A DNA stretch of 40,930 bases, from contig JAMCXO010000022.1 in the NCBI GenBank assembly GCA_023473545.1, forward strand, positions 1 to 40,930. Reading direction: 5' to 3'. Shown here piece by piece: positions 19,146 through 27,597 of this stretch. Each line of letters opens with the position of its first letter. Positions within the stretch are counted from its first letter, which is position 1. Source of the stretch: Patescibacteria group bacterium (GTDB lineage Bacteria > Patescibacteriota > Microgenomatia > Levybacterales > UBA12049). The notes below the pieces were generated by a model. It saw only the letters and a list, made by a program, of their open reading frames with translations, ran no database searches and was not told the DNA's origin. A program made the position numbers and the translations under genes.

Positions 19146-19260
19146 ACAAGGTCTGGGGTTTCGATCCTGGTTTATCAAGGGAATCACGGTGAAATTCCGT
19201 GGCTGTGCCGCAACTGTTAAAGTCAGACTACTTGAGCCTTGTCTTACCTTCGAGCAAAGG
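19146..19260 (+). ncRNA. Cobalamin riboswitch, compact (class II-like) aptamer with P13
   Basis: AAGGGAA, then cacGG-TGAAATT-CCgtg T-loop hairpin, then tgCCGCAACTGT and AAGTCAG. Closing helix acaagg(19146-19151)/ccttgt(19237-19242). P13 cctt-cgagca-aagg has a loop complementary to L5 ugccg with one bulged A. Confidence 0.88.
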
Positions 19261-19338: not shown

Positions 19339-20895
19339 ATGATTGCGGAAGCGCCAAGATTTATCGCTAACCAAGAACCGGAGGGGCATTCCGTCCAAAC
19401 GAATGACTTTGATATCGAAGAATCCCGAAGGCTAAAAAGCTCTTTAGAACAAAAGGTTGGCTGGGGGTATAATGTTTTGGCCGAAGTTGATATCCTCCTG
19501 GGGTCTTTGCGAAAATCTCCTTCTTCGGGAATTGACCCGGCGGCAAAAGAGTACGTGCTCGAAAATGAATTAACAGCCGCCTGCGAAGCAGTGGAGAGCG
19601 GCCGCTACCTCTGGTCATCGTACAGACCCTGGGACGCGAAAGCCGGGGAATTTAAGGCATTCGGCACCTCATTTATCGGACTCTTACGATCAGGCGTTGC
19701 CGATATGGAAAAAAAAGTGCGTCAGGAAGAACGCGAAGAATATGAATTTGAATTAAAGCGAAGGTCCATAGAGCTTGCCGTAGAGCAGGAGCTCACCCGT
19801 TTATACGCTAATGGAGAGCGCGGCAGGATGTTTCTTACCATCTCTGCCTATCCCGAAGAGGTTTCGGAAGAGATAGCCGCCGGTTTAGGCTATAAACCGG
19901 AAGACAGATTAGCCAAACTGCGTTTTGAGGTTTTCGCCAAAGGCGTCTTTGCCGAAGATGTCAGACAAACCGTCGAATTAAGCGTTGCCAATGGCTCGGT
20001 GCGGGTTTTTCAAAAATTGGCTTTAGATCTTGGCGAAAACCCTTCGGATTTTCCGGATTCAGCAAGCCTTCTGGCAAGGCCTATCAGCCTTGGAGACCCT
20101 TCGAATTATCTGGATAAGATAACAGCTATTGCGCAAAGATATGACCGGCTCCTGGAAAACGAAGACCCAACCTCGTCTTATTTTTGCGGACAAAAAGTCA
20201 AGACTAAGAATTACGAAGAAATTATCGCCAGGCAGCGCTTTGTCAGAGAAAAAGGCAAGGAGCTGGTCGAAAAACTATATAATCTGGACATGGAATTGGC
20301 CGAAAGCCTAAACCAAGAAAAGCCAACCCCGCCAATAGAAGATTCCATCCGCTACTGGTTGGTTACTAAAGACGGAAACAACCGGTACCTGCTCTCGGAA
20401 GAAGAACGGGGGGTTTTGGAAGAGGTAACTAAAAATAATATTTTATCGAGAACCGCCGCCTTTATCCTCAAGAAAAACGAATTAGTCCGCATGTGGTCGG
20501 TTATGGCCTGCCTTATTAACGAAGAGAAAGCCAAGAAGCTCTTTGGGGAAGAAAAAGTTATCCGCATTCAAAACATGATGAAAGAGACAGCTGTTCCAAC
20601 CCAAATGCAATATTATCTTGATCAAATGATCGCTTACGCCAACCCTCAATTTATTGCCTGCGGAGGATTAGTTAATTCCTTTGGCGCGGGACCCGGTTTG
20701 CCAAATAGCGCAAAAGGCCTTTTCCAAAGCCCCCTGTCTCAAGTCAAAGAGAGCAGGTACCGGTTGTTTTCACAAGCCGAATCTCGTATTTTATGCTGTA
20801 CCTGCCCTTATTGCAAGCAGGAGGTTGAGGCTGTTATTAAAGACGGGTCTATTACCTGTCCAAAATGTAACAAAAGTGTTTCTTGGCAGAATTAG
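19339..20895 (+). CDS. Hypothetical soluble protein with C-terminal Zn ribbon, downstream of the cobalamin riboswitch
   Basis: 518-aa, Glu-rich and helical. No signal peptide or TM. IACGG, then CCTCPYC...CPKC. Confidence 0.85.
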   Translation: MIAEAPRFIANQEPEGHSVQTNDFDIEESRRLKSSLEQKVGWGYNVLAEVDILLGSLRKSPSSGIDPAAKEYVLENELTAACEAVESGRYLWSSYRPWDAKAGEFKAFGTSFIGLLRSGVADMEKKVRQEEREEYEFELKRRSIELAVEQELTRLYANGERGRMFLTISAYPEEVSEEIAAGLGYKPEDRLAKLRFEVFAKGVFAEDVRQTVELSVANGSVRVFQKLALDLGENPSDFPDSASLLARPISLGDPSNYLDKITAIAQRYDRLLENEDPTSSYFCGQKVKTKNYEEIIARQRFVREKGKELVEKLYNLDMELAESLNQEKPTPPIEDSIRYWLVTKDGNNRYLLSEEERGVLEEVTKNNILSRTAAFILKKNELVRMWSVMACLINEEKAKKLFGEEKVIRIQNMMKETAVPTQMQYYLDQMIAYANPQFIACGGLVNSFGAGPGLPNSAKGLFQSPLSQVKESRYRLFSQAESRILCCTCPYCKQEVEAVIKDGSITCPKCNKSVSWQN

Positions 20896-20897
20896 AA

Positions 20898-21488
20898 CTA
20901 ACCGCCAGTCTTCCAAATTGTTTCTTTTTTGCCTTCCTGGTAATTAGCAAAACGGGCCATGGTAAACAAAAGATCGGAAAGACGGTTAAAGTATTCCAGG
21001 ATTTCAGCCCGCACGTTTTCTTCATTACGCAGGGCGACAATGTTTCGCTCCGCCCTTCGGCATACTGTTCGGCTTAGATGCAGAAGAGCTCCCAGCCTCC
21101 CTCCTCCCGGCAGAATAAAATTATGGAGTTCCGGCATTTTCCCTGTCATTTGGTCAATCTCTCTTTCAAATTCCCCAACATGTTTTACTACTTCTGATAG
21201 GTATTCTTTTTCCGCTTTCCGATGACGAGGAATATCTGTTGGGTTTGCCAGCATTGAGCCTATTTCTAGCAAATCGCTTTGAATCATTTGCAACTCAACC
21301 CGCAATCTTTCTTTAACCTTTTGCGTTTTGAGTTTTGAATCTTGAATCTCCGCCGCCGCAAGGCCAATCAGCGAATCCAATTCATCAACAGTCCCGTACG
21401 CGTTTACGCGAAGATTGGCTTTTGAAACTCTTTTTCCGCCAAAAAGCGATGTTTCCCCTTTATCTCCTTTTCTGGTATAAATCGGCAT
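20898..21488 (-). CDS. pduO: ATP:cob(I)alamin adenosyltransferase, PduO type
   Basis: IYTRKGDKGET, YGTVDEL, FILPGG, RTVCRRAER and NRLSDLLF. Coupled to nrdJ by a TAATG overlap at 21486-21490. Confidence 0.95.
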   Translation of the reverse strand: MPIYTRKGDKGETSLFGGKRVSKANLRVNAYGTVDELDSLIGLAAAEIQDSKLKTQKVKERLRVELQMIQSDLLEIGSMLANPTDIPRHRKAEKEYLSEVVKHVGEFEREIDQMTGKMPELHNFILPGGGRLGALLHLSRTVCRRAERNIVALRNEENVRAEILEYFNRLSDLLFTMARFANYQEGKKETIWKTGG

Positions 21489-24400
21489 TAACATTCGCTG
21501 TATCCGCAGCTATAGCATTTCCGGCAGCCTTCCTCATAGGCAAAGCTAACTGTTCCGCAGGAAGGACAGATGTCAAAAAGTCCGGTCGAGGATGAATCAT
21601 CTTTTATTTTAAGCGCCAGCTGGTTAACATGAACTTCGTCTGATGGTTTATTTTCTTCTTTAGAAAATCCGTTTGATAAATCAGCCGAAGGACTCCTGTC
21701 TTCAACCTGTCCGTTAACGGCAAACCCCATATGCGCCGCGAGCACTTTGGCAACCGCGTCGGGCAGGGATCTAACCTTATTTACGCCAAATCCAACACTT
21801 CTTGCCCCTCCGATTCCGACAAGCTGGGCTACAATCTGGCGCACCTTTTCCCGTTGGGTTACCCCCGCGTTAAGCTGAAGAGAAAGAGAAATCATCCTGC
21901 CCAGCCCCTCCGCCATCGCGCCAACATCGGATCCTGATTTGCCCACTGTTATAAACATTTCCGAAGGCTCCGTCCTGTCGCTTTGATGATTTATGGAAAT
22001 ATAGGTTATGCCCATTGGCGTCTTGACTTTATAGGTTACCCCTTCCAGTTTTTCCGGGCGAGGCAAAACAGCCACCATGGGCAAAGCGGGCTGGGTAACC
22101 TCTTCTTTCTCTTTCTTCTCCTTTGCCGAATCCACTCTTTCCAAAACACCCTGACGCGATCCGTCACGCATATAGGTAATACCCTTTAATCCCATATCGT
22201 AGGCAAGCATGTAGAGCGTCTTGACGTCATCAACCGTATGGCTGTTAGGCGCGTTAACGGTTTTGGAGATTGACGAATCAATATACTCCTGGGCTATTGC
22301 CTGAACCCTGGCGTGATCCAAAGGCGTCAGATCGTTGGCGGAGGCAAAGTAGTCAGGCTTTTCTTCGTTGGGATGATCCTTAAGCCACTGCTCATAAAGA
22401 TAATGATAAACTATTTCCTCTCCGCCCCTCCAGCGTCTAAGAAACTTAAATTCATAAACAGGCTCTATGCCGGAGGTAACCCCGGAAACAAGAGAGGTGG
22501 TGCCGGTTGGGGCAATGGTTAATAAAACCGCGTTTCTGATGCCTTGTTTTCTAATCTTGTCCCGAAGTTTTTCCGGCAGGGCTTTTACGTGATAGCCCTC
22601 CAGGTATTTTTCCGGGGCGAACTTTGGAAAAGAGCCCTTCTCTTTGGCAATATCCGAAGACGCTTCGTAGGCGCTGTCCCTAAGGGTTTCGAAAATCTTG
22701 TGAAGAACCGGCTCGCATTCTTTGGAGCCGTATCTGATTTTCATTTTAATAAGCGCGTCCCCCAAACCCATAATGCCAAGGCCCTGGCGCCGGATTTCCT
22801 TGGAACGCTTTTCATTCTCTTTAAAGAAATAATAAGTTTGGTCAATCACGTTATCTAAAAACCTAACCGCCGTGGCCACATCTTTGCTAAAGTTTTTATA
22901 ATCAAACTCTCCGTTTTTAACATAAGCTGCCAGATTCATCGCTCCAAGATTGCAAACCGCCCAGCCCGAAAGCGGCTGCTCCCCGCACCCCCTGGAGACA
23001 ACTCCTTCGGCAATCCAGGTGTCCGAAATCGGCTCATGCAGATCATAAACCGTCTCAATTCCATCCTGCTCAACCGAGACAATCTTAGCAAGCCAGGTGT
23101 TACCGGTTAATGCAAAATCTTTTTGGGCAATTCTTAGCTTTTTTTGTTTATCCGGATGGGAAAGACCGATCCTTTCGGCAAACACCTTCATACCGGCTCC
23201 GGAGACAATAACCTCATACTGTCTGTGCTTAGAATAAATAATTCTATCGCCGATATGCCCGTTTGCTACTTTCTTGACTTTTACAATTCGCCCATGGATA
23301 CCAAAAGACAAAAGAATGCGGCGGATATCCAAGGCTAAATGTTGGCTGGTTGTTTTAAATCTCAGGAAAGGGTGGGTACTTGAAAGATTAATATTGCCAT
23401 CTGTCGAGAAAAGTCCGTCAAGAAGCCCTGCCAAGAAACGCCTGTTGGTATTTTGATACGCGAGGGGAATCCTTTTTTCAAAAGAATAGGAGGGGGCAAG
23501 AAGAGACTCTCTGACCATAAGCGCTGTGCCGTTTATTCCCCGCATGGTAAGATTAGCAGAGCGGCTATTTTGTGCCGCGTCAAGGCTTACTCTTGATCCT
23601 GTCATCTCAAGGGTTTCACGCACTAAAGAAATCCAATCCTTCTCATCCGTGTTAACGGCGAGCTTCACAACATTTCTGCTTAGAATTTTTTCCGTAATGC
23701 ATCCGTCTCCCAAAAGAATTCCCACCAAGAACCCGTAATCTCTGTCATTCCAACCCTTTGGCAAGCCGGAAACCTTGTTTTCGGGCATAAGGGTTGGGGC
23801 GATACGCACCATATCTCCTGCTTCAAGCTCCGCCAAACTTAACGGCGTAAATCTTTTATTGGCAGCATTTTTTGCTCTATCTTTATGCTTAATTGCGTGG
23901 AACTGATGAGCGGCTGTTGCGCGAAGCTCTGCTCCATCGGAAAGTTTTACCCGAAAAACCGGCTTATTCTCATAAGTCTCAACCTTATCAACCTTACCGC
24001 TGCCAAGTACCGTTGCTATTCTTTCTCCTTCCTGGATTGAATCCGCTCTTTTCCATCCATCCTTGGTGGCAACCAGAGTATCGCCTGTCAGGCAGGGATT
24101 TGTCGCGATCAGCTTCTCGAAATAAAAAGTGTTGCTTCTTTTATTCGACCTTTCCAGGAAGTGAAGCCCCGGCTCCGCGGATCTCCAGGCGGCCGTGCAG
24201 ATTAAATCCCAAAGGTATCTTGCCTTGACAGTCTTATAGACCTTGACTTTGCCGCCGATCTTGCGCCACTCGTCAATCTCCCCGTTCCACTTTTTATCAT
24301 ACCTCGGATCATCCAGGTCAGGATAAATAAGCTGCCAGTCCTGATCATTTTTCACCGCTTCCATAAAGGAATCGGAAACGCAAACCGACAAATTCGCTCC

Positions 24401-24970
24401 GTTAATTTTCGAAAGGTCATCTTTAACGGTAATAAATTCTTCGATATCCGGATGCCAGTCCCAAAGCATAATCATCGTTGCCCCCCTCCGGCTGCCGCCC
24501 TGCTGCACAATGTCGTGGGTGGCAACGGAAAAAAGCTCAGCCCAGTTAACAGGACCCGAAGAAGTGCCGTTGACTTTTTTGACACGGGCGCCTCTGGGAC
24601 GAAGAGAAGAAAGATTTAATCCCACTCCGCCCGAGCGGGACTGGATTTCAACCAGCTGTCTTAATGCCTCAAGGATCCCATCCCTTGAATCTTTAGGAGA
24701 CGGAATAACAAAACAGTTAAAATAGGTTACCTCATAAGCTGTGCCTGCCCCGGATAAGATACGGCCCCCGGGAACAAACTTAAATCCCTCCATTACCCTA
24801 TAAAATTCTTTTTCCCAGAAGGAGCGCGCGTTTTCCTTTTCGTTTTTAGCGATCCCCCCGGCAACCCTTTTCCACATCTCTTCTGGCGTATGCTCAACAA
24901 GCCCTCCGTCCTCATCTTTAAGGGCGTAGCGATCCAGGAATACTTTTTCTCTTATGCCGTCAAATTTCAT
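21488..24970 (-). CDS. nrdJ: Adenosylcobalamin-dependent (class II) ribonucleotide reductase, intein-containing, with TSCPD domain and Zn-ribbon tail
   Basis: PGGRIL, NCFV, GGVG, QGGSRRGA, TNP|CGEQPL split by an intein, CNLG, IAPTGT and C-terminal CPSC...CYSCGYSEC. No beta-subunit gene nearby; PduO is adjacent. Confidence 0.95.
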   Translation of the reverse strand: MKFDGIREKVFLDRYALKDEDGGLVEHTPEEMWKRVAGGIAKNEKENARSFWEKEFYRVMEGFKFVPGGRILSGAGTAYEVTYFNCFVIPSPKDSRDGILEALRQLVEIQSRSGGVGLNLSSLRPRGARVKKVNGTSSGPVNWAELFSVATHDIVQQGGSRRGATMIMLWDWHPDIEEFITVKDDLSKINGANLSVCVSDSFMEAVKNDQDWQLIYPDLDDPRYDKKWNGEIDEWRKIGGKVKVYKTVKARYLWDLICTAAWRSAEPGLHFLERSNKRSNTFYFEKLIATNPCLTGDTLVATKDGWKRADSIQEGERIATVLGSGKVDKVETYENKPVFRVKLSDGAELRATAAHQFHAIKHKDRAKNAANKRFTPLSLAELEAGDMVRIAPTLMPENKVSGLPKGWNDRDYGFLVGILLGDGCITEKILSRNVVKLAVNTDEKDWISLVRETLEMTGSRVSLDAAQNSRSANLTMRGINGTALMVRESLLAPSYSFEKRIPLAYQNTNRRFLAGLLDGLFSTDGNINLSSTHPFLRFKTTSQHLALDIRRILLSFGIHGRIVKVKKVANGHIGDRIIYSKHRQYEVIVSGAGMKVFAERIGLSHPDKQKKLRIAQKDFALTGNTWLAKIVSVEQDGIETVYDLHEPISDTWIAEGVVSRGCGEQPLSGWAVCNLGAMNLAAYVKNGEFDYKNFSKDVATAVRFLDNVIDQTYYFFKENEKRSKEIRRQGLGIMGLGDALIKMKIRYGSKECEPVLHKIFETLRDSAYEASSDIAKEKGSFPKFAPEKYLEGYHVKALPEKLRDKIRKQGIRNAVLLTIAPTGTTSLVSGVTSGIEPVYEFKFLRRWRGGEEIVYHYLYEQWLKDHPNEEKPDYFASANDLTPLDHARVQAIAQEYIDSSISKTVNAPNSHTVDDVKTLYMLAYDMGLKGITYMRDGSRQGVLERVDSAKEKKEKEEVTQPALPMVAVLPRPEKLEGVTYKVKTPMGITYISINHQSDRTEPSEMFITVGKSGSDVGAMAEGLGRMISLSLQLNAGVTQREKVRQIVAQLVGIGGARSVGFGVNKVRSLPDAVAKVLAAHMGFAVNGQVEDRSPSADLSNGFSKEENKPSDEVHVNQLALKIKDDSSSTGLFDICPSCGTVSFAYEEGCRKCYSCGYSEC
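22988..24094 (-). mobile_element. Intein (369 aa) with LAGLIDADG homing endonuclease and atypical C-terminus (...VVSRG)
   Basis: Block A CLTGDTLV, block B ATAAHQF, DOD motifs LVGILLGDG and LLDGLFSTDG, block F VYDL. Removing residues 293-661 restores ATNP-CGEQPL. Confidence 0.93.
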
Positions 24971-24983
24971 AATAAATTAAAAA

Positions 24984-25433
24984 TTACTTTATCAATCTCC
25001 TTACCTCTTTTTCAAAATCTTCTATATCAACAAACCGCTTAAAAACGCTTGAAAATCTGATATAGGCTACCTTATCTATTTTTTTTAATCTTGCCGCCAC
25101 CAGACTGCCTATTTTTTTACTTTCAACCTCTATGCCGGACTCCTGCCTTAAATCCTTTTCCGTCTCCGTTGCGATCTTTTCTATGGTATCCGCCGGAACC
25201 GTTGTTTTTTCGCATGCCTTAATGATGCCTTCTTTTAATTTTTCCCGGCTGAATCTCTCTCTTTTTCCGTCTTTTTTTATGACAATCAGATTAGCGTTCT
25301 CAATCCTCTCGTAGGTCGTAAACCGCTTCTGGCATTTTAAACAAGCCCTTCTCCGGCGTATCGTTTCTAAATCCTCGCTGTCTCTTGTTTCCACAACCTC
25401 GGTTTCCAAATTTAAGCAGAAAGGACACTTCAT
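24984..25433 (-). CDS. nrdR: Transcriptional repressor NrdR
   Basis: MKCPFC...IRRRRACLKCQKRFTTYE, ATP cone VIKKDGKRE and DKVAYIRFSSV. Confidence 0.98.
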   Translation of the reverse strand: MKCPFCLNLETEVVETRDSEDLETIRRRRACLKCQKRFTTYERIENANLIVIKKDGKRERFSREKLKEGIIKACEKTTVPADTIEKIATETEKDLRQESGIEVESKKIGSLVAARLKKIDKVAYIRFSSVFKRFVDIEDFEKEVRRLIK

Positions 25434-25731: not shown

Positions 25732-26274
25732 CTATTTACGAATGATTGACTTAAGCATATTTCTAAAGTTAATCATTCTCTGCTGGTCTTTGGCAAATTC
25801 CGCCTTAAGATTTTTAGATGATTTGGCGGAAATACCGCTAATCACTTCCTGCTGTTTCATCGAGGAAAGAATCATTTTATTAACCAGGCTCTTTGTGTCC
25901 TCTCCTTGTTTTCTTGCCTCTCTTAAGGAGGAGATTGCCTGGTCAAGATAGTTTTCGCCTTTGGATATGGTGGTTTCCGCTAGTTGGAATTCTCCTTTTC
26001 GGGAAAGATATAGTCCCGCGTTAGTCCTTTTTTCCGATTGAAGAAGGTTAAATTCCGTCTTTTTAAGGGAATCGGAGATCAAAAAACCCACTATTCTGTC
26101 TCTGATCATCTTTAAAAAGTACAATGGATTATCGGGCAAAAGGCCGGGATAGGGCAGCTGATAATCTATCTTATGTCCGTTAAAAGAAGCACCTGCCTTA
26201 TCCTGACTAAAGGCTTGAGGCATAACCAAGACGGTTAACAAGAAAAAGGTTGCTATGACTAAAGTTTTTTTCAT
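25732..26274 (-). CDS. DUF5667-like exported helical protein
   Basis: Signal peptide followed by YQLPYPGLLPDNPLYFLKMIRD. Confidence 0.75.
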   Translation of the reverse strand: MKKTLVIATFFLLTVLVMPQAFSQDKAGASFNGHKIDYQLPYPGLLPDNPLYFLKMIRDRIVGFLISDSLKKTEFNLLQSEKRTNAGLYLSRKGEFQLAETTISKGENYLDQAISSLREARKQGEDTKSLVNKMILSSMKQQEVISGISAKSSKNLKAEFAKDQQRMINFRNMLKSIIRK

Positions 26275-26328: not shown

Positions 26329-27597
26329 CTATCTCTCGGCTACCGCATTTAGCCAATCGCTCTCCAGCCTATCAAATTTATTGGTAAAAGACAATTTGCC
26401 ATATTCTCCCTGGTACTCTCCCATGTTTCCCGCTATGGAAATTTTATTAAAACCTGATTCTTTTAAGGCTTGGAGAAGGATACGATCTGTTATGTAATGA
26501 ATTTTTATTGTTGTTATACCTTTAAAGATCCAATTTTCTCCGTCACTATCAAATATTACCGTGTGGTGAAAAAGAATATTGCCTGCTTTCCTGTCAAAAA
26601 ACTCCATAAGCAAATGTTCTTTCTCATCGTTAGTCCTTGATTTTTGTATCTTAAAATTTAAGAGTCTATCTTTTTTAATCAAAAGCTTCTCAAGATTAAG
26701 AGTCTGAATAATAAATATTCCGTTTTTCTTATCTAGCAACTGATATATCTGTTTAAACAATGTTTTTAGCGATACAGGAATATAAGGCAGAGAATTACCC
26801 ATACATATTGCCGCATCAAATTTCCTACTGATTTTATCAGAAAAGTTAGTAAAATCGGTCAGCATAAAATCAACTCTCTTTTTATACTGGCTAGCTAGCT
26901 TATTCCTTTCTTTATTTGCGATATCAACCATAATCTCATTGTGATCTAATCCTAAAATCTTATAATTTGTCTTCTTAGCTAACTCTAACGTATATCTTCC
27001 GGTCCATACTCCAATATCCAATATTGACTGTGCATTATTAGTTTTTAGCAGATTTAAAAGCACAGGAAATTCATAATTTAGACGCTTTCCCCAGTTAACC
27101 ATCAAATTGTAATAACGCGCAACAAAACTGGCATAGCTTTGTGTCTCCAATTTAGGGAGCTCATTTTTTATAAGTTGCCTAAAGATATCTCCTTGCGAAA
27201 CAATGCCTAAAAGGTGACCTTTCGCATCAATAACAGGAAGCCTGCTAACACGATTTATAAGCATTTTTGATTGCGCCTCCATAAGAGAAACATTAGGAGA
27301 TACGCTAATTACCTGTTCGTTCATCAATTCTTTAATAGACATGTCAAAGATGTTTTTTAGGTTGTGCTCCATCGCTTCGAAGCTCTTGGCATGCACATAG
27401 TCTTCTATCAAATCCTGCATAGAAGGATAAAGTTTTATGAGAATATCTTGTTCCGTGACTATGCCAATCAGTTTTCCACCTTTAACAACAGGAACCCCTG
27501 ATATGCCCAAGTTAAAAATAATTCTGGCAACCTCCTTTATCTTTTGATCAGGAGAGACAGTTACTACTGTTTTCTGCATTATTTCCAGGAGTTTCAT
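26329..27597 (-). CDS. CBS-domain pair fused to a class I SAM-dependent methyltransferase
   Basis: ISGVPVV...GIVTEQDI and VSRLPVID...GIVSQGDI. MTase motifs ILDIGVWTG, ILGLD and FDAAICMGNSLPYI. Confidence 0.88.
   Translation of the reverse strand: MKLLEIMQKTVVTVSPDQKIKEVARIIFNLGISGVPVVKGGKLIGIVTEQDILIKLYPSMQDLIEDYVHAKSFEAMEHNLKNIFDMSIKELMNEQVISVSPNVSLMEAQSKMLINRVSRLPVIDAKGHLLGIVSQGDIFRQLIKNELPKLETQSYASFVARYYNLMVNWGKRLNYEFPVLLNLLKTNNAQSILDIGVWTGRYTLELAKKTNYKILGLDHNEIMVDIANKERNKLASQYKKRVDFMLTDFTNFSDKISRKFDAAICMGNSLPYIPVSLKTLFKQIYQLLDKKNGIFIIQTLNLEKLLIKKDRLLNFKIQKSRTNDEKEHLLMEFFDRKAGNILFHHTVIFDSDGENWIFKGITTIKIHYITDRILLQALKESGFNKISIAGNMGEYQGEYGKLSFTNKFDRLESDWLNAVAER

What the first reader, a model, noticed from the sequence alone, without database searches (positions are those of the whole stretch)
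22985..24094. RNR intein that ends in Gly and lacks the whole Asn-cyclisation apparatus
Seen: the intein ends VYDLHEPISDTWIAEGVVSRG|CGEQ (codons tcc agg ggg tgc). Established: inteins release themselves by cyclising a terminal Asn (rarely Gln/Asp), aided by the penultimate His and block-F His, and the +1 Cys here is the RNR thiyl-radical cysteine. Terminal Asn, penultimate His and the usual block-F His are all replaced, while Cys1, TxxH, block-F Asp, both LAGLIDADG motifs and the host operon look intact. HN to RG needs several substitutions, so a single error is unlikely. Inference: an undescribed splicing chemistry (perhaps using the His-Glu in LHEP or the Arg), conditional control of RNR, or a parasite that inactivates NrdJ.
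Basis: partly seen in the sequence, partly recalled or inferred. Interest (0 to 1): 0.88.

Follow-up and report, generated by a model that had tools for sequence, protein, structure and literature searches.

The report
Glycine-ending intein family in NrdJ
A self-splicing protein insert in this bacterium's only enzyme for making DNA building blocks ends in glycine instead of the asparagine that known inteins use to cut themselves free, and the same odd ending is kept in many relatives, which points to an undescribed way of finishing protein splicing.

Summary
The class II ribonucleotide reductase gene nrdJ (21488..24970, minus strand) carries a 369-residue intein (22988..24094) between Pro and the thiyl-radical Cys. 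It reads TNP|CLTGDTLV...SDTWIAEGVVSRG|CGEQ.

It is not a singleton. Of 206 full-length inteins recovered at this site, 181 end in Gly, 16 in Asn, 7 in Asp and 2 in Gln. The Gly-ending inteins form one clade, next to the Asp-ending ones. All 181 have Asp at block F position 13, where canonical inteins usually have the His that activates the terminal Asn. The Asp-ending relatives have Leu there.

Several results indicate a working intein:
- The intein is under purifying selection (dN/dS about 0.07).
- Its identity to relatives exceeds that of its exteins, which suggests horizontal transfer.
- It persists as 143- and 154-residue mini-inteins without the endonuclease.
- It sits in the only RNR gene found in 6 of 7 carrier genomes.

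Best reading: a working intein whose C-terminal cut uses the cross-strand Asp358 carboxylate instead of cyclisation of the last residue. This is inferred, not shown.

Nine full-text searches and two reviews list only Asn, Gln and Asp endings. I rate it a new mechanistic variant of a known kind, of high interest, awaiting biochemistry.

The parts
21488..24970 (-). nrdJ precursor ORF (1160 aa): class II, B12-dependent ribonucleotide reductase with one intein, a TSCPD domain and a C-terminal Cys-rich tail
24095..24970 (-). N-extein (aa 1-292), ending ...FEKLIATNP
   Evidence: intein-less orthologues read ATNPCGEQ
22988..24094 (-). Intein, 369 aa (precursor aa 293-661): HINT splicing domain split by a LAGLIDADG homing endonuclease domain
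   Evidence: TIGR01445 28.3 bits; AF2 pLDDT 94.4; Foldseek PI-SceI 1.4e-19, PI-PfuI 3.6e-17
24092..24094 (-). Cys1, the intein N-terminal nucleophile (C in 206 of 206 aligned inteins)
23906..23917 (-). Block B T60-A-A-H63 (T 177 and S 4 of 181 in the Gly-type, T in all 25 others; H invariant)
23978..23980 (-). Glu39, a Gly-type-specific residue (E in 170 of 181; Tyr in the Asp-type, Phe in 14 of 16 Asn-type)
23897..23899 (-). His66, specific to the crown Gly-type (H in 164 of 181; Lys/Arg in the Asp-type and Lys in the basal Gly-type)
23804..23806 (-). Arg97, specific to the crown Gly-type (R in 165 of 181)
23699..23734 (-). LAGLIDADG motif 1 (GFLVGILLGDGC)
23393..23437 (-). LAGLIDADG motif 2 (FLAGLLDGLFSTDGN)
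23042..23044 (-). Asp351 = block F:4 Asp (D in 181 of 181 Gly-type, 7 of 7 Asp-type, 16 of 16 Asn-type)
23021..23023 (-). Asp358 = block F:13, the position of the canonical His. D in 181 of 181 Gly-type, L in 7 of 7 Asp-type. Proposed catalytic carboxylate for the C-terminal cut.
   Evidence: aligns with the His of PHNF in 1mi8
22988..22993 (-). Arg368-Gly369, the last two intein residues (G in 181 of 181; R 155, Q 18, V 7, L 1)
22985..22987 (-). +1 Cys (precursor C662): the C-extein nucleophile, and the Cys of the NPCGE motif of NrdJ (its thiyl-radical role is recalled knowledge)
21488..22987 (-). C-extein (aa 662-1160 plus stop), CGEQPLSGWAVCNLGA...
24984..25433 (-). nrdR (Zn-ribbon plus ATP-cone repressor), upstream in the same orientation
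20898..21494 (-). PduO-type cob(I)alamin adenosyltransferase, downstream and overlapping the nrdJ stop region; it makes the NrdJ cofactor
   Evidence: PF01923, 1.8e-58

Best explanation
This is a functional, mobile, bifunctional intein (HINT plus LAGLIDADG) in the NP|CGE active-site loop of NrdJ. It belongs to a large and previously uncatalogued clade, here called the Gly-type. This clade has given up the cyclising last residue.

Steps 1 and 2 of splicing look canonical class 1 chemistry: an N-S acyl shift at Pro-Cys1, then transfer of the N-extein to Cys+1. Cys1, block B T..H, block F:4 Asp and +1 Cys are all retained.

Step 3, cutting the Gly369-Cys+1 bond, cannot use succinimide, glutarimide or anhydride formation by the last residue. 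I propose that the invariant Asp358 does it. Asp358 sits at block F:13, directly across the final beta-hairpin from residue 369. Its carboxylate occupies the space freed by Gly.

Asp358 could act in either of two ways:
- It attacks the Gly369 carbonyl and forms a transient inter-residue mixed anhydride. This would be a side-chain-transplanted version of what the sister Asp-ending inteins do with their own last residue.
- It acts as a general base for water.

The freed Cys+1 amine then completes the S-N shift.

Shown: the anatomy, the family-wide invariance, the phylogenetic position, selection, mobility and the sole-RNR context.

Inferred: that the intein splices, and the role of Asp358.
For: (1) The ending is family-wide.
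- 118 of the 119 other proteins listed in the near-relative search show ...G|CGE at the same site.
- Of 206 full-length same-site inteins (60 of 266 proteins were dropped as partial matches), 181 end in Gly, 16 in Asn, 7 in Asp and 2 in Gln.
- Of the 150 best 50%-identity cluster representatives, 76 are D...G|C, 7 are L...D|C, 33 end in Asn, 6 end in Gln and 28 have no matched C-end.

(2) Position 358 is Asp in 181 of 181 Gly-type inteins and Leu in 7 of 7 Asp-type. Among the 16 Asn-type it is most often His (8), then Asn (4) and Ser (2). Position 369 is Gly in 181 of 181. Gly uses GGA 19, GGG 11, GGT 9 and GGC 6; Asp uses GAT 26 and GAC 19; Arg368 uses six codons. Selection therefore acts on the amino acids.

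(3) Asp358 aligns with the F:13 His of a solved canonical intein (PHNF of 1mi8). A review states that His F:13 acts directly on Asn G:7 (PMC4031507, section 6, read). The AF2 model (pLDDT 94.4) has strands 360-362 and 365-368 around a 363-364 turn. That register places 358 opposite 369.

(4) In the tree (98 rows, last four columns removed) the Gly-type is one side of a single branch (73 rows, SH-aLRT 94). It is joined to six Asp-type rows at 95 and to the seventh at 92. The basal Gly-type lineage keeps the Asp-type residues at positions 66 and 97 (Lys; Leu or Val) and has Gln at 368, not the crown Arg, but already has Asp358 and Gly369.

(5) Signs of function:
- Intein dN/dS is 0.066 and 0.074. 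Extein dN is 0.22-0.25 with saturated dS.
- Intein identity exceeds extein identity in two comparisons, 80 vs 70% and 65 vs 32%. This indicates horizontal spread.
- Mini-inteins of 143 and 154 aa without an endonuclease keep TDTW...SRG|C. L144 keeps all six Gly-type residues inside an uninterrupted NrdJ reading frame that runs to the end of the locus.

(6) The host gene matters.
- G000 (81% complete) and G228 (95%) have this nrdJ as their only PF02867 hit, and neither has NrdD. NrdB was searched only in G000 and not found.
- G401-G404 likewise have a single RNR locus and no NrdD.
- Same-family genomes G106 (100% complete) and G328 (99%) rely on an intein-less nrdJ alone.

(7) The fold is a bona fide intein endonuclease: PI-SceI 1.4e-19 and PI-PfuI 3.6e-17 by Foldseek, and 1dq3 2.5e-16 by profile search.
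Against: - No biochemical evidence of splicing exists for any member. All carriers named by their sources are metagenome-assembled genomes.
- The Asp358/Gly369 association arose once on the tree. The covariation is therefore one evolutionary event and not a statistical proof of coupling. What counts is its later invariance.
- I could not obtain model coordinates. The 358-369 contact is inferred from hairpin register and from the literature on F:13, and was not measured.
- Asp at F:13 also occurs in one canonical HN-ending intein at another RNR site (P0193). Asp there is therefore not diagnostic by itself.
- Sequence cannot distinguish a nucleophilic from a general-base role.
- Glu39 is also nearly specific to the clade (170 of 181) and might be the real catalyst or a co-catalyst.
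- Completeness is 81% for G000 and is not given for G401-G405. CPR bacteria might salvage deoxynucleosides, which weakens the 'must splice' argument. G405 has a second RNR contig.
- The tree is a 'quick' search. Support for Gly-type monophyly is 94 and is not starred.
Confidence: 0.6

Rival explanations
1. The intein splices, but the C-terminal cut works by an N-S acyl shift at the Gly369-Cys+1 bond itself, as at the Hedgehog Gly|Cys junction. The Cys+1 amine is freed and captures the N-extein thioester. The intein remains as a Gly thioester, which is then hydrolysed or captured by Cys1. Capture by Cys1 would release a circular intein.
For: - Gly is strictly invariant before Cys (181 of 181), not merely a small residue.
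- In Hedgehog processing the Cys attacks the carbonyl of the preceding Gly (PMC3207474, passages seen).
- The +1 residue is Cys in all 206 inteins.
- From recall, not from any call: Gly-Cys is the usual context of intein and Hedgehog N-S shifts.
Against: - The Cys+1 thiol would have to serve two roles.
- No second TxxH-like motif is seen near the C-junction.
- This model does not explain why Asp358 is invariant, or why the sister clade carries the Asp on the last residue instead.
- +1 Cys is dictated by the host active site, so its invariance carries no information.
Confidence: 0.15
2. The intein needs a factor acting in trans to be released. Candidates are a host protease or thiol, the B12 cofactor, or the extein residues Asn-3 and Glu+3 of the NrdJ active site. 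Alternatively it splices only under certain conditions such as redox state, which would make it a switch on RNR activity.
For: - The intein sits in the catalytic NPCGE loop, so the invariant extein residues Asn and Glu are at hand.
- Cys1 and Cys+1 could form a disulfide. This is an inference.
- All Gly-type inteins seen are confined to this one site.
Against: - The intein has moved between very different hosts. Intein identity is 65% against 32% for the exteins. Carriers include Patescibacteria, Chloroflexi, Acidobacteria (Blastocatellia), Nitrospinota and Poribacteria by source names, plus IMG/VR viral contigs. That is hard to reconcile with a dedicated host factor.
- No conserved partner gene was looked for or seen.
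- Help from extein residues is compatible with the main model and is not a rival to it.
Confidence: 0.1
3. The intein is dead or does not splice. In that case NrdJ is inactivated, or works with the insert in place, and the cells live on salvaged deoxynucleosides.
For: - No residue able to cyclise is present.
- G000 is only 81% complete.
- CPR bacteria are thought to depend on hosts (recalled knowledge).
Against: - The exteins and the intein are both under strong purifying selection.
- The catalytic motifs are intact.
- The clade holds at least 76 clusters at 50% identity, with Gly369 and Asp358 invariant.
- Endonuclease-free mini-inteins keep the splicing-domain residues.
- Tandem arrangements exist in which a canonical intein uses the Gly-type Cys1 as its +1 residue.
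- A 369-residue insert at the tip of the active-site loop cannot plausibly be tolerated. This is an inference.
Confidence: 0.04
4. The ending is a sequencing or assembly error, or the intein boundaries have been misread.
For: None found.
Against: - The same ending occurs in independent assemblies from many sources, and all four Gly codons are used.
- The sequence is collinear with HN|C inteins at the same site, with an identical 21-residue spacing from VYD to the end.
- Intein-less alleles fix the insert at exactly 369 residues.
Confidence: 0.01

Closest known systems
Asp-ending ribonucleotide reductase inteins. These are the 'L...[F/L]D|C' group found here (P0150, P0166, P0172, P0174, P0192, P0194, P0240). 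The published example is the Chy RIR1 intein of Amitai, Dassa and Pietrokovski 2004 (J Biol Chem 279:3121). That paper is not held. I saw it only as a citation in PMC4031507 and PMC4760082, and its content is recalled.
   Same: - Same insertion site (NP|C[GSA]E).
- Same architecture.
- TW in block F, Ser at G:5, no His at F:13 or G:6.
- They are the nearest relatives of the Gly-type on the tree.
- Both lack Asn.
- From recall of the 2004 abstract: the Asp-ending intein splices, and its Asp-to-Ala mutant still showed C-terminal cleavage that cyclisation cannot explain. That would foreshadow the Gly-type chemistry.
   Different: - The Asp-type keeps a cyclisable last residue and has Leu at F:13.
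- The Gly-type has Gly last and Asp at F:13, and usually Arg instead of Phe or Leu at G:6. Glu39, His66 and Arg97 replace Tyr, Lys/Arg and Leu/Ala/Val.
- I did not test whether Chy RIR1 itself belongs to the Asp-type group found here.
Canonical class 1 inteins at the same NrdJ site (VHN|CGEQ, for example P0195, P0206, P0234)
   Same: Homologous and collinear. Cys1, TxxH, F:4 Asp and +1 Cys are shared, as are the LAGLIDADG endonuclease and the target site.
   Different: They have His or Asn at F:13, His at G:6 and Asn at G:7. The NCBIfam N-terminal splicing-region model hits the window intein (28.3 bits, cut-off 24.5), but no C-terminal splicing-region model appears at E up to 1.
Solved intein homing endonucleases: PI-PfuI (1dq3, from a Pyrococcus RNR), PI-SceI (1ef0, 1vde) and TliVMA (7qsu)
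   Same: Overall two-domain fold. Foldseek gives E 1.4e-19 to 3.6e-17 with TM 0.62-0.68. 1dq3 is the best PDB sequence-profile hit at 2.5e-16.
   Different: 11-13% identity. From recall, all of them end in Asn. A single-sequence phmmer search of the PDB gave no hit at E 0.01.
Hedgehog/Hog autoprocessing domains (Gly|Cys junction)
   Same: A HINT fold that works at a Gly-Cys peptide bond through an N-S acyl shift (PMC3207474, passages seen).
   Different: In Hedgehog the Gly|Cys bond is at the N-terminus of the HINT domain and the thioester is resolved by cholesterol. Here it is at the C-terminus. This is a resemblance only, and membership is not claimed.

Membership tests
Intein (HINT splicing domain with LAGLIDADG endonuclease) | In-frame insert in a conserved host protein, absent from orthologues, with precise boundaries | tested here: met
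   Intein-less orthologues read ATNPCGEQ. The insert is exactly 369 aa.
Intein (HINT splicing domain with LAGLIDADG endonuclease) | HINT fold interrupted by a homing endonuclease domain | tested here: met
   AF2 pLDDT 94.4. Foldseek finds PI-SceI, TliVMA and PI-PfuI at E 1e-19 to 1e-17. PF14528 1.5e-14.
Class 1 (standard) intein | N-terminal Cys, Ser or Thr nucleophile | tested here: met
   Cys1 in 206 of 206. TIGR01445 intein_Nterm 28.3 bits against a cut-off of 24.5.
Class 1 (standard) intein | Block B Thr-x-x-His | tested here: met
   T60 and H63. His is invariant. Thr is T in 177 and S in 4 of 181 Gly-type, and T in all 25 others.
Class 1 (standard) intein | Block F:4 Asp | tested here: met
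   D351 in 181 of 181.
Class 1 (standard) intein | +1 Cys, Ser or Thr on the C-extein | tested here: met
   C370 in 206 of 206.
Class 1 (standard) intein | C-terminal Asn (rarely Gln or Asp) that cyclises to cut the C-terminal junction | tested here: not met
   Gly369 in 181 of 181 members of the clade. The reviews list only Asn, Gln and Asp (PMC4031507 section 6; PMC2807308 passages).
Class 1 (standard) intein | Assisting His at F:13 and penultimate His at G:6 (common, not obligatory) | tested here: not met
   Asp358 and Arg368. The F:13 assignment rests on alignment to 1mi8.
Class 1 (standard) intein | Demonstrated protein splicing | not testable with these tools
   Only indirect evidence is available: selection, sole RNR, mini-inteins.
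Class 3 inteins (WCT triplet, block F Cys nucleophile, no Cys1) | No N-terminal nucleophile; Cys at F:4 | tested here: not met
   Cys1 is present and F:4 is Asp. A subclade has Cys at position 354 (33 of 181), but that is not F:4.
Asp-ending RIR1 inteins | Terminal Asp | tested here: not met
   The terminal residue is Gly. The Asp-type is the neighbouring group on the tree.
Class II ribonucleotide reductase (NrdJ) host | RNR barrel and alpha domains, the NPCGE loop, the flanking redox Cys residues, and a B12 context | tested here: met
   PF02867 4.2e-122 and PF00317 1.1e-18. The exteins join to give NPCGE. FNCF and AVCNLG are present. A PduO adenosyltransferase and nrdR are adjacent.

The most novel reading that the evidence does not exclude
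Gly-type inteins are a fourth mechanistic class of protein splicing. In it the C-terminal peptide bond is cut without any cyclisation of the last residue. An internal carboxylate (Asp at block F:13), placed across the final hairpin from an obligatory terminal Gly, attacks or activates water at the Gly-Cys bond. In effect a catalytic side chain has moved from one strand to its neighbour during evolution, in the order Asn, then Asp, then Gly plus Asp in trans. If the attack is nucleophilic, the excised intein is transiently a lariat closed by an anhydride. The family would also give protein engineers a C-terminal cleavage module with different pH and sequence rules.
Probability: 0.5. Interest if true: 0.88.

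Novelty: new variant of a known kind. Interest (0 to 1): 0.82.

Why it matters
In every textbook and review account I could read, step 3 of protein splicing is cyclisation of the intein's last residue, which is Asn or exceptionally Gln or Asp.

This work finds a large, old, mobile and evidently selected clade that has a side-chain-less Gly in that position. It holds at least 76 clusters at 50% identity, spans several bacterial phyla and also occurs on contigs of the IMG/VR viral collection. The clade shows that the step can be done another way, and it names a concrete candidate residue (Asp F:13) to test.

It would also bear on an old puzzle, which I recall but could not read: C-terminal cleavage by an Ala mutant of the Asp-ending Chy RIR1 intein.

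It offers small natural mini-inteins (143-154 aa) for biochemistry and possibly for new self-cleaving tags.

For genome annotation, intein finders that require a terminal Asn, or the C-terminal splicing-region model, may miss or mis-delimit these elements. Many of them are labelled 'hypothetical protein' in the source records.

Tried and rejected
- The first AF2 run used 7 sequences and gave pLDDT 31-36 over residues 340-370. It was discarded. A 44-sequence alignment gave 94.4.
- Model coordinates are not exposed, and /data holds only FASTA files. I could not measure the Asp358-Gly369 distance or see where Glu39, His66 and Arg97 lie.
- Single-sequence phmmer of the intein against PDB sequences gave 0 hits at E 0.01. 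A profile search was needed.
- dN/dS for the exteins could not be computed because dS was saturated in every extein pair. Only two intein pairs gave finite values.
- The genome-contig scan with the single protein found only 5 close relatives, all MAGs. No cultured carrier was identified.
- The listing of cluster members gave no organism names for the proteins from the three largest contigs.
- The phylum sample found the intein in only 2 of 401 Patescibacteria genomes, G000 included. I could not centre a search on Chloroflexota, where many carriers lie.
- Amitai et al. 2004 is not held. Paper supplements are closed and were not asked for. InBase-derived tables in supplements, for example those of PMC2807308, might list endings I could not see.
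- The idea that the insert starts after the first Cys (LTGD...SRGC) was rejected. Collinear relatives at the same site end HN|C.
- The metagenome and viral scans used Gly-type-derived patterns (TA[AT]HQFH and others). Their 53 RG|C of 61 junctions is a biased sample and is not used as a frequency.
Full report
**What is in the window**

The minus-strand ORF 21488..24970 encodes a 1160-aa class II ribonucleotide reductase. Pfam finds the following:
- Ribonuc_red_lgC, 4.2e-122.
- Ribonuc_red_lgN.
- TSCPD.
- LAGLIDADG_3, 1.5e-14.
- A sub-threshold Intein_splicing match.

Residues 293-661 (window 22988..24094) are an insert that reads CLTGDTLV...VYDLHEPISDTWIAEGVVSRG. It is followed by CGEQPL. Otherwise the description is exact, down to the codons tcc agg ggg tgc.

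Two genomes of the same family (G106, 100% complete; G328, 99%) carry intein-less nrdJ genes of 805 and 802 aa. These read ...FERLIATNPCGEQPLSAWAVCNLGA.... This fixes the insert at exactly 369 residues between Pro and the Cys of the NPCGE loop.

The gene lies between nrdR and a PduO-type cobalamin adenosyltransferase.

**It is an intein by fold and by N-terminal chemistry**

With a 44-sequence alignment, AlphaFold2 gives a confident model (mean pLDDT 94.4, pTM 0.93). A first attempt with 7 sequences was poor at the C-terminus.

Foldseek places the model with intein homing endonucleases:
- PI-SceI, 1.4e-19.
- TliVMA, 9.9e-19.
- PI-PfuI, 3.6e-17.

A profile search of PDB sequences gives PI-PfuI (1dq3) as the best hit, at 2.5e-16.

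The NCBIfam N-terminal splicing-region model hits above its cut-off (28.3 against 24.5 bits). No C-terminal splicing-region model appears even at E up to 1.

Cys1, block B Thr60..His63, block F:4 Asp351 and +1 Cys are all present.

**The Gly ending is a family trait, not an accident**

A word-indexed search restricted to the intein region returned 374 proteins. Of the 119 listed besides the query, 118 show an intein at the same site ending ...G|CGE. The endings are mostly SRG, with a few SVG, NRG, NQG, QRG and QVG.

An exhaustive HMMER search of 1.84 billion cluster representatives gave 2720 hits. The 150 best break down as follows:

| Ending | Count |
| --- | --- |
| Asp at F:13, Gly last, Cys +1 | 76 |
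| Leu at F:13, Asp last | 7 |
| Asn last | 33 |
| Gln last | 6 |
| No matched C-end | 28 |

Pooling both searches, and keeping only proteins in which the whole intein was matched, leaves 206 of 266 proteins. The other 60 were dropped as partial. Of the 206, 181 end in Gly (RG 155, QG 18, VG 7, LG 1), 16 in Asn, 7 in Asp and 2 in Gln.

Source names place the carriers as follows:
- Levybacteria, Daviesbacteria and other Patescibacteria.
- Chloroflexi/Anaerolineae.
- Blastocatellia.
- Nitrospinota.
- Poribacteria.

Three contigs of the IMG/VR viral collection also carry the Gly-type.

Within Patescibacteria the intein is sporadic, as expected of a mobile element. It was found in 2 of 401 sampled genomes, G000 included.

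**What co-varies with the Gly**

The 206 sequences were aligned. The 21 residues from VYD to the end are collinear in all types:

| Type | Block F/G stretch |
| --- | --- |
| Canonical | VYDLTEPxTHSFIANGxVVHN |
| Asp-type | VFDVHEPETLTWVTNGYVSFD |
| Gly-type | VYDLYEPxSDTWITEGYVSRG |

Position 358 is Asp in 181 of 181 Gly-type and Leu in 7 of 7 Asp-type. Among the 16 Asn-type it is most often His (8), then Asn (4) and Ser (2).

This position is block F:13. The profile alignment to the solved Ssp DnaB mini-intein (1mi8) pairs it with the His of PHNF.

A review I read states that His F:13 raises the nucleophilicity of the terminal Asn G:7 and stabilises the tetrahedral intermediate. It also states that the only known replacements of Asn G:7 are Asp and Gln (PMC4031507, section 6). 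PMC2807308 says the same for the 450 inteins of InBase in 2009 (passages).

Other Gly-type-specific residues are Glu39 (170 of 181), His66 (164), Arg97 (165) and Arg368 (155). The earliest-branching Gly-type lineage (P0188, P0189, P0201) still has Lys66 and Leu or Val at 97 as in the Asp-type, and Gln at 368, not the crown Arg. It already has Glu39, Asp358 and Gly369. Only Asp358 and Gly369 are invariant, so these two define the type.

- His353 is Tyr in 138, His in 26 and Phe in 16.
- Glu354 is Cys in 33.

Codon use shows that selection acts at the amino-acid level. Gly369 uses GGA 19, GGG 11, GGT 9 and GGC 6. Asp358 uses GAT 26 and GAC 19. Arg368 uses six codons. These counts come from 45 distinct DNA versions.

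**Phylogeny**

A maximum-likelihood tree was built from 98 inteins: the full-length representatives plus a few near relatives. The last four columns were removed so that the trait does not drive the tree.
- The Gly-type falls on one side of a single branch (73 rows, SH-aLRT 94).
- It is joined to six Asp-type rows at 95, and to the seventh at 92.
- The Asn and Gln types lie outside.

If the tree is rooted among the canonical inteins, the order is Asn, then Asp, then Gly.

This was a 'quick' search, and the 94 is below the star threshold. Because the Gly-type arose once, the perfect Asp358/Gly369 association is one event and not a statistical demonstration of coupling. The argument rests on the invariance that followed, across branches of 0.2 to more than 1 substitution per site.

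**Signs that it works**

1. Selection. Intein dN/dS is 0.066 (window against L002) and 0.074 (L003 against L004). For the exteins, dN is 0.22-0.25 and dS is saturated.

2. Mobility. The intein is more similar than its exteins in two comparisons: window against L002 (80 vs 70%) and window against L005 (65 vs 32%).

3. Mini-inteins. Two metagenomic nrdJ genes carry 154-aa and 143-aa versions with no endonuclease, and both still end TDTW...SRG|C. The L144 copy keeps Glu39, His66, Arg97, Asp358, Arg368 and Gly369. It sits in an uninterrupted NrdJ reading frame that runs to the end of the locus, in a high-GC organism. Homing cannot maintain these residues, so selection for removal from the host protein is the only evident reason for them.

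4. Essentiality.
   - In G000 (81% complete) this is the only PF02867 match, and there is no NrdD or NrdB.
   - G228 (95% complete) has a Gly-type nrdJ as its only RNR.
   - G401-G404, reached through loci L002-L005, have one RNR locus each and no NrdD.
   - G405 has a second RNR contig.
   - In all, 6 of 7 carrier genomes examined show no alternative RNR. The caveat is that completeness is unknown for four of them.

5. Tandem inteins. In three proteins a canonical Asn-ending intein lies immediately upstream at the same site. It uses the Gly-type intein's Cys1 as its +1 residue.

**Mechanism**

Steps 1 and 2 can be canonical. For step 3 the last residue has no side chain, so no imide or anhydride can form from it.

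The model's strands 360-362 and 365-368 flank a two-residue turn at 363-364. Extending that hairpin register places residue 358 directly across from residue 369. This agrees with the documented F:13-G:7 interaction.

My best explanation is that the carboxylate carried on the last residue in the sister clade has been moved to the neighbouring strand. Gly at 369 makes room for it. Asp358 then does one of two things:
- It attacks the Gly369 carbonyl, giving an inter-residue mixed anhydride that is later hydrolysed.
- It activates water.

This is an inference. I could not access model coordinates, and no biochemistry exists.

The main rival is an N-S acyl shift at the Gly-Cys+1 bond, as in Hedgehog. 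It would explain why Gly is obligatory, but not why Asp358 is invariant.

The remaining rivals, with the evidence on each, are listed under Rival explanations:
- A factor acting in trans.
- Conditional splicing.
- A dead intein.
- An artefact.

**Is it known?**

Nine full-text searches found no paper describing an intein that ends in Gly or lacks a cyclisable terminus. Passages or sections read in five papers gave the same result.

The closest published case is recalled and was not read, because the paper is not held. Amitai et al. 2004 showed that a Gln-ending intein and an Asp-ending RNR intein (Chy RIR1) splice. As I recall the abstract, an Ala substitution of the terminal Asp still gave C-terminal cleavage that cyclisation cannot explain.

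The library lacks most subscription journals, and supplements were closed. Prior mention therefore cannot be excluded. All carriers named by their sources are MAGs, which may be why curated intein collections lack them.

**Verdict**

I rate it a new mechanistic variant of a known kind, with interest 0.82. Confidence is about 0.85-0.9 that this is a functional, conserved family that does not cyclise its last residue. Confidence in the full statement, including the role of Asp358, is about 0.6.

Noticed in passing
window 19162..19241 (+) and ORF 19339..20895 (+): An AdoCbl-II riboswitch (RF01689, 48.4 bits, E 7e-9) lies directly upstream of a 518-aa ORF. The ORF has no Pfam match and has a C-terminal CxxC...CxxC tail. 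It is convergent with the B12-dependent nrdR-nrdJ-pduO operon. It may be an unknown protein for acquiring or handling cobalamin.
   Followed up: partly
P0147 (about aa 343-1061), P0179 (about 553-1166), P0232 (about 314-988): Tandem inteins occupy one insertion site. A canonical intein ending ...GN or ...SN follows TNP or CNP directly. Its +1 residue is the Cys1 of a Gly-type intein, which in turn ends ...RG|CGE. No extein residue separates the two inteins.
   Followed up: partly
L143:1501-1965 and L144:1501-1932: Natural Gly-type mini-inteins of 154 and 143 aa lack the LAGLIDADG domain. L144 lies in a high-GC nrdJ that is otherwise intact. They are convenient subjects for biochemistry.
   Followed up: partly
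L012/L138 (the same 340-kb contig), L013, L014: Gly-type nrdJ inteins occur on contigs of the IMG/VR viral collection. I did not check whether these contigs are truly viral.
   Followed up: no
Gly-type subclade, for example P0135, P0151, P0159 (intein position 354): 33 of 181 Gly-type inteins have Cys instead of Glu at position 354 (VYDLYCE.SDTW). They usually also have Gln at position 367 and a CVAEGTLVNT N-terminus. This extra Cys lies three residues after the F:4 Asp, and its role is unknown.
   Followed up: no
L005 / G404:C13:13151-15848: In this carrier the RNR barrel match is split into two adjacent pieces (profile positions 1-398 and 398-523), and the longest ORF is 896 aa. This suggests a frameshift, a second interruption or a split gene downstream of the intein.
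   Followed up: no
window 26329..27597 (-) and 25732..26274 (-): Upstream of nrdR lie a fusion protein with tandem CBS domains and a SAM methyltransferase domain (422 aa), and a DUF5667 protein with what looks by eye like an N-terminal signal sequence.
   Followed up: no
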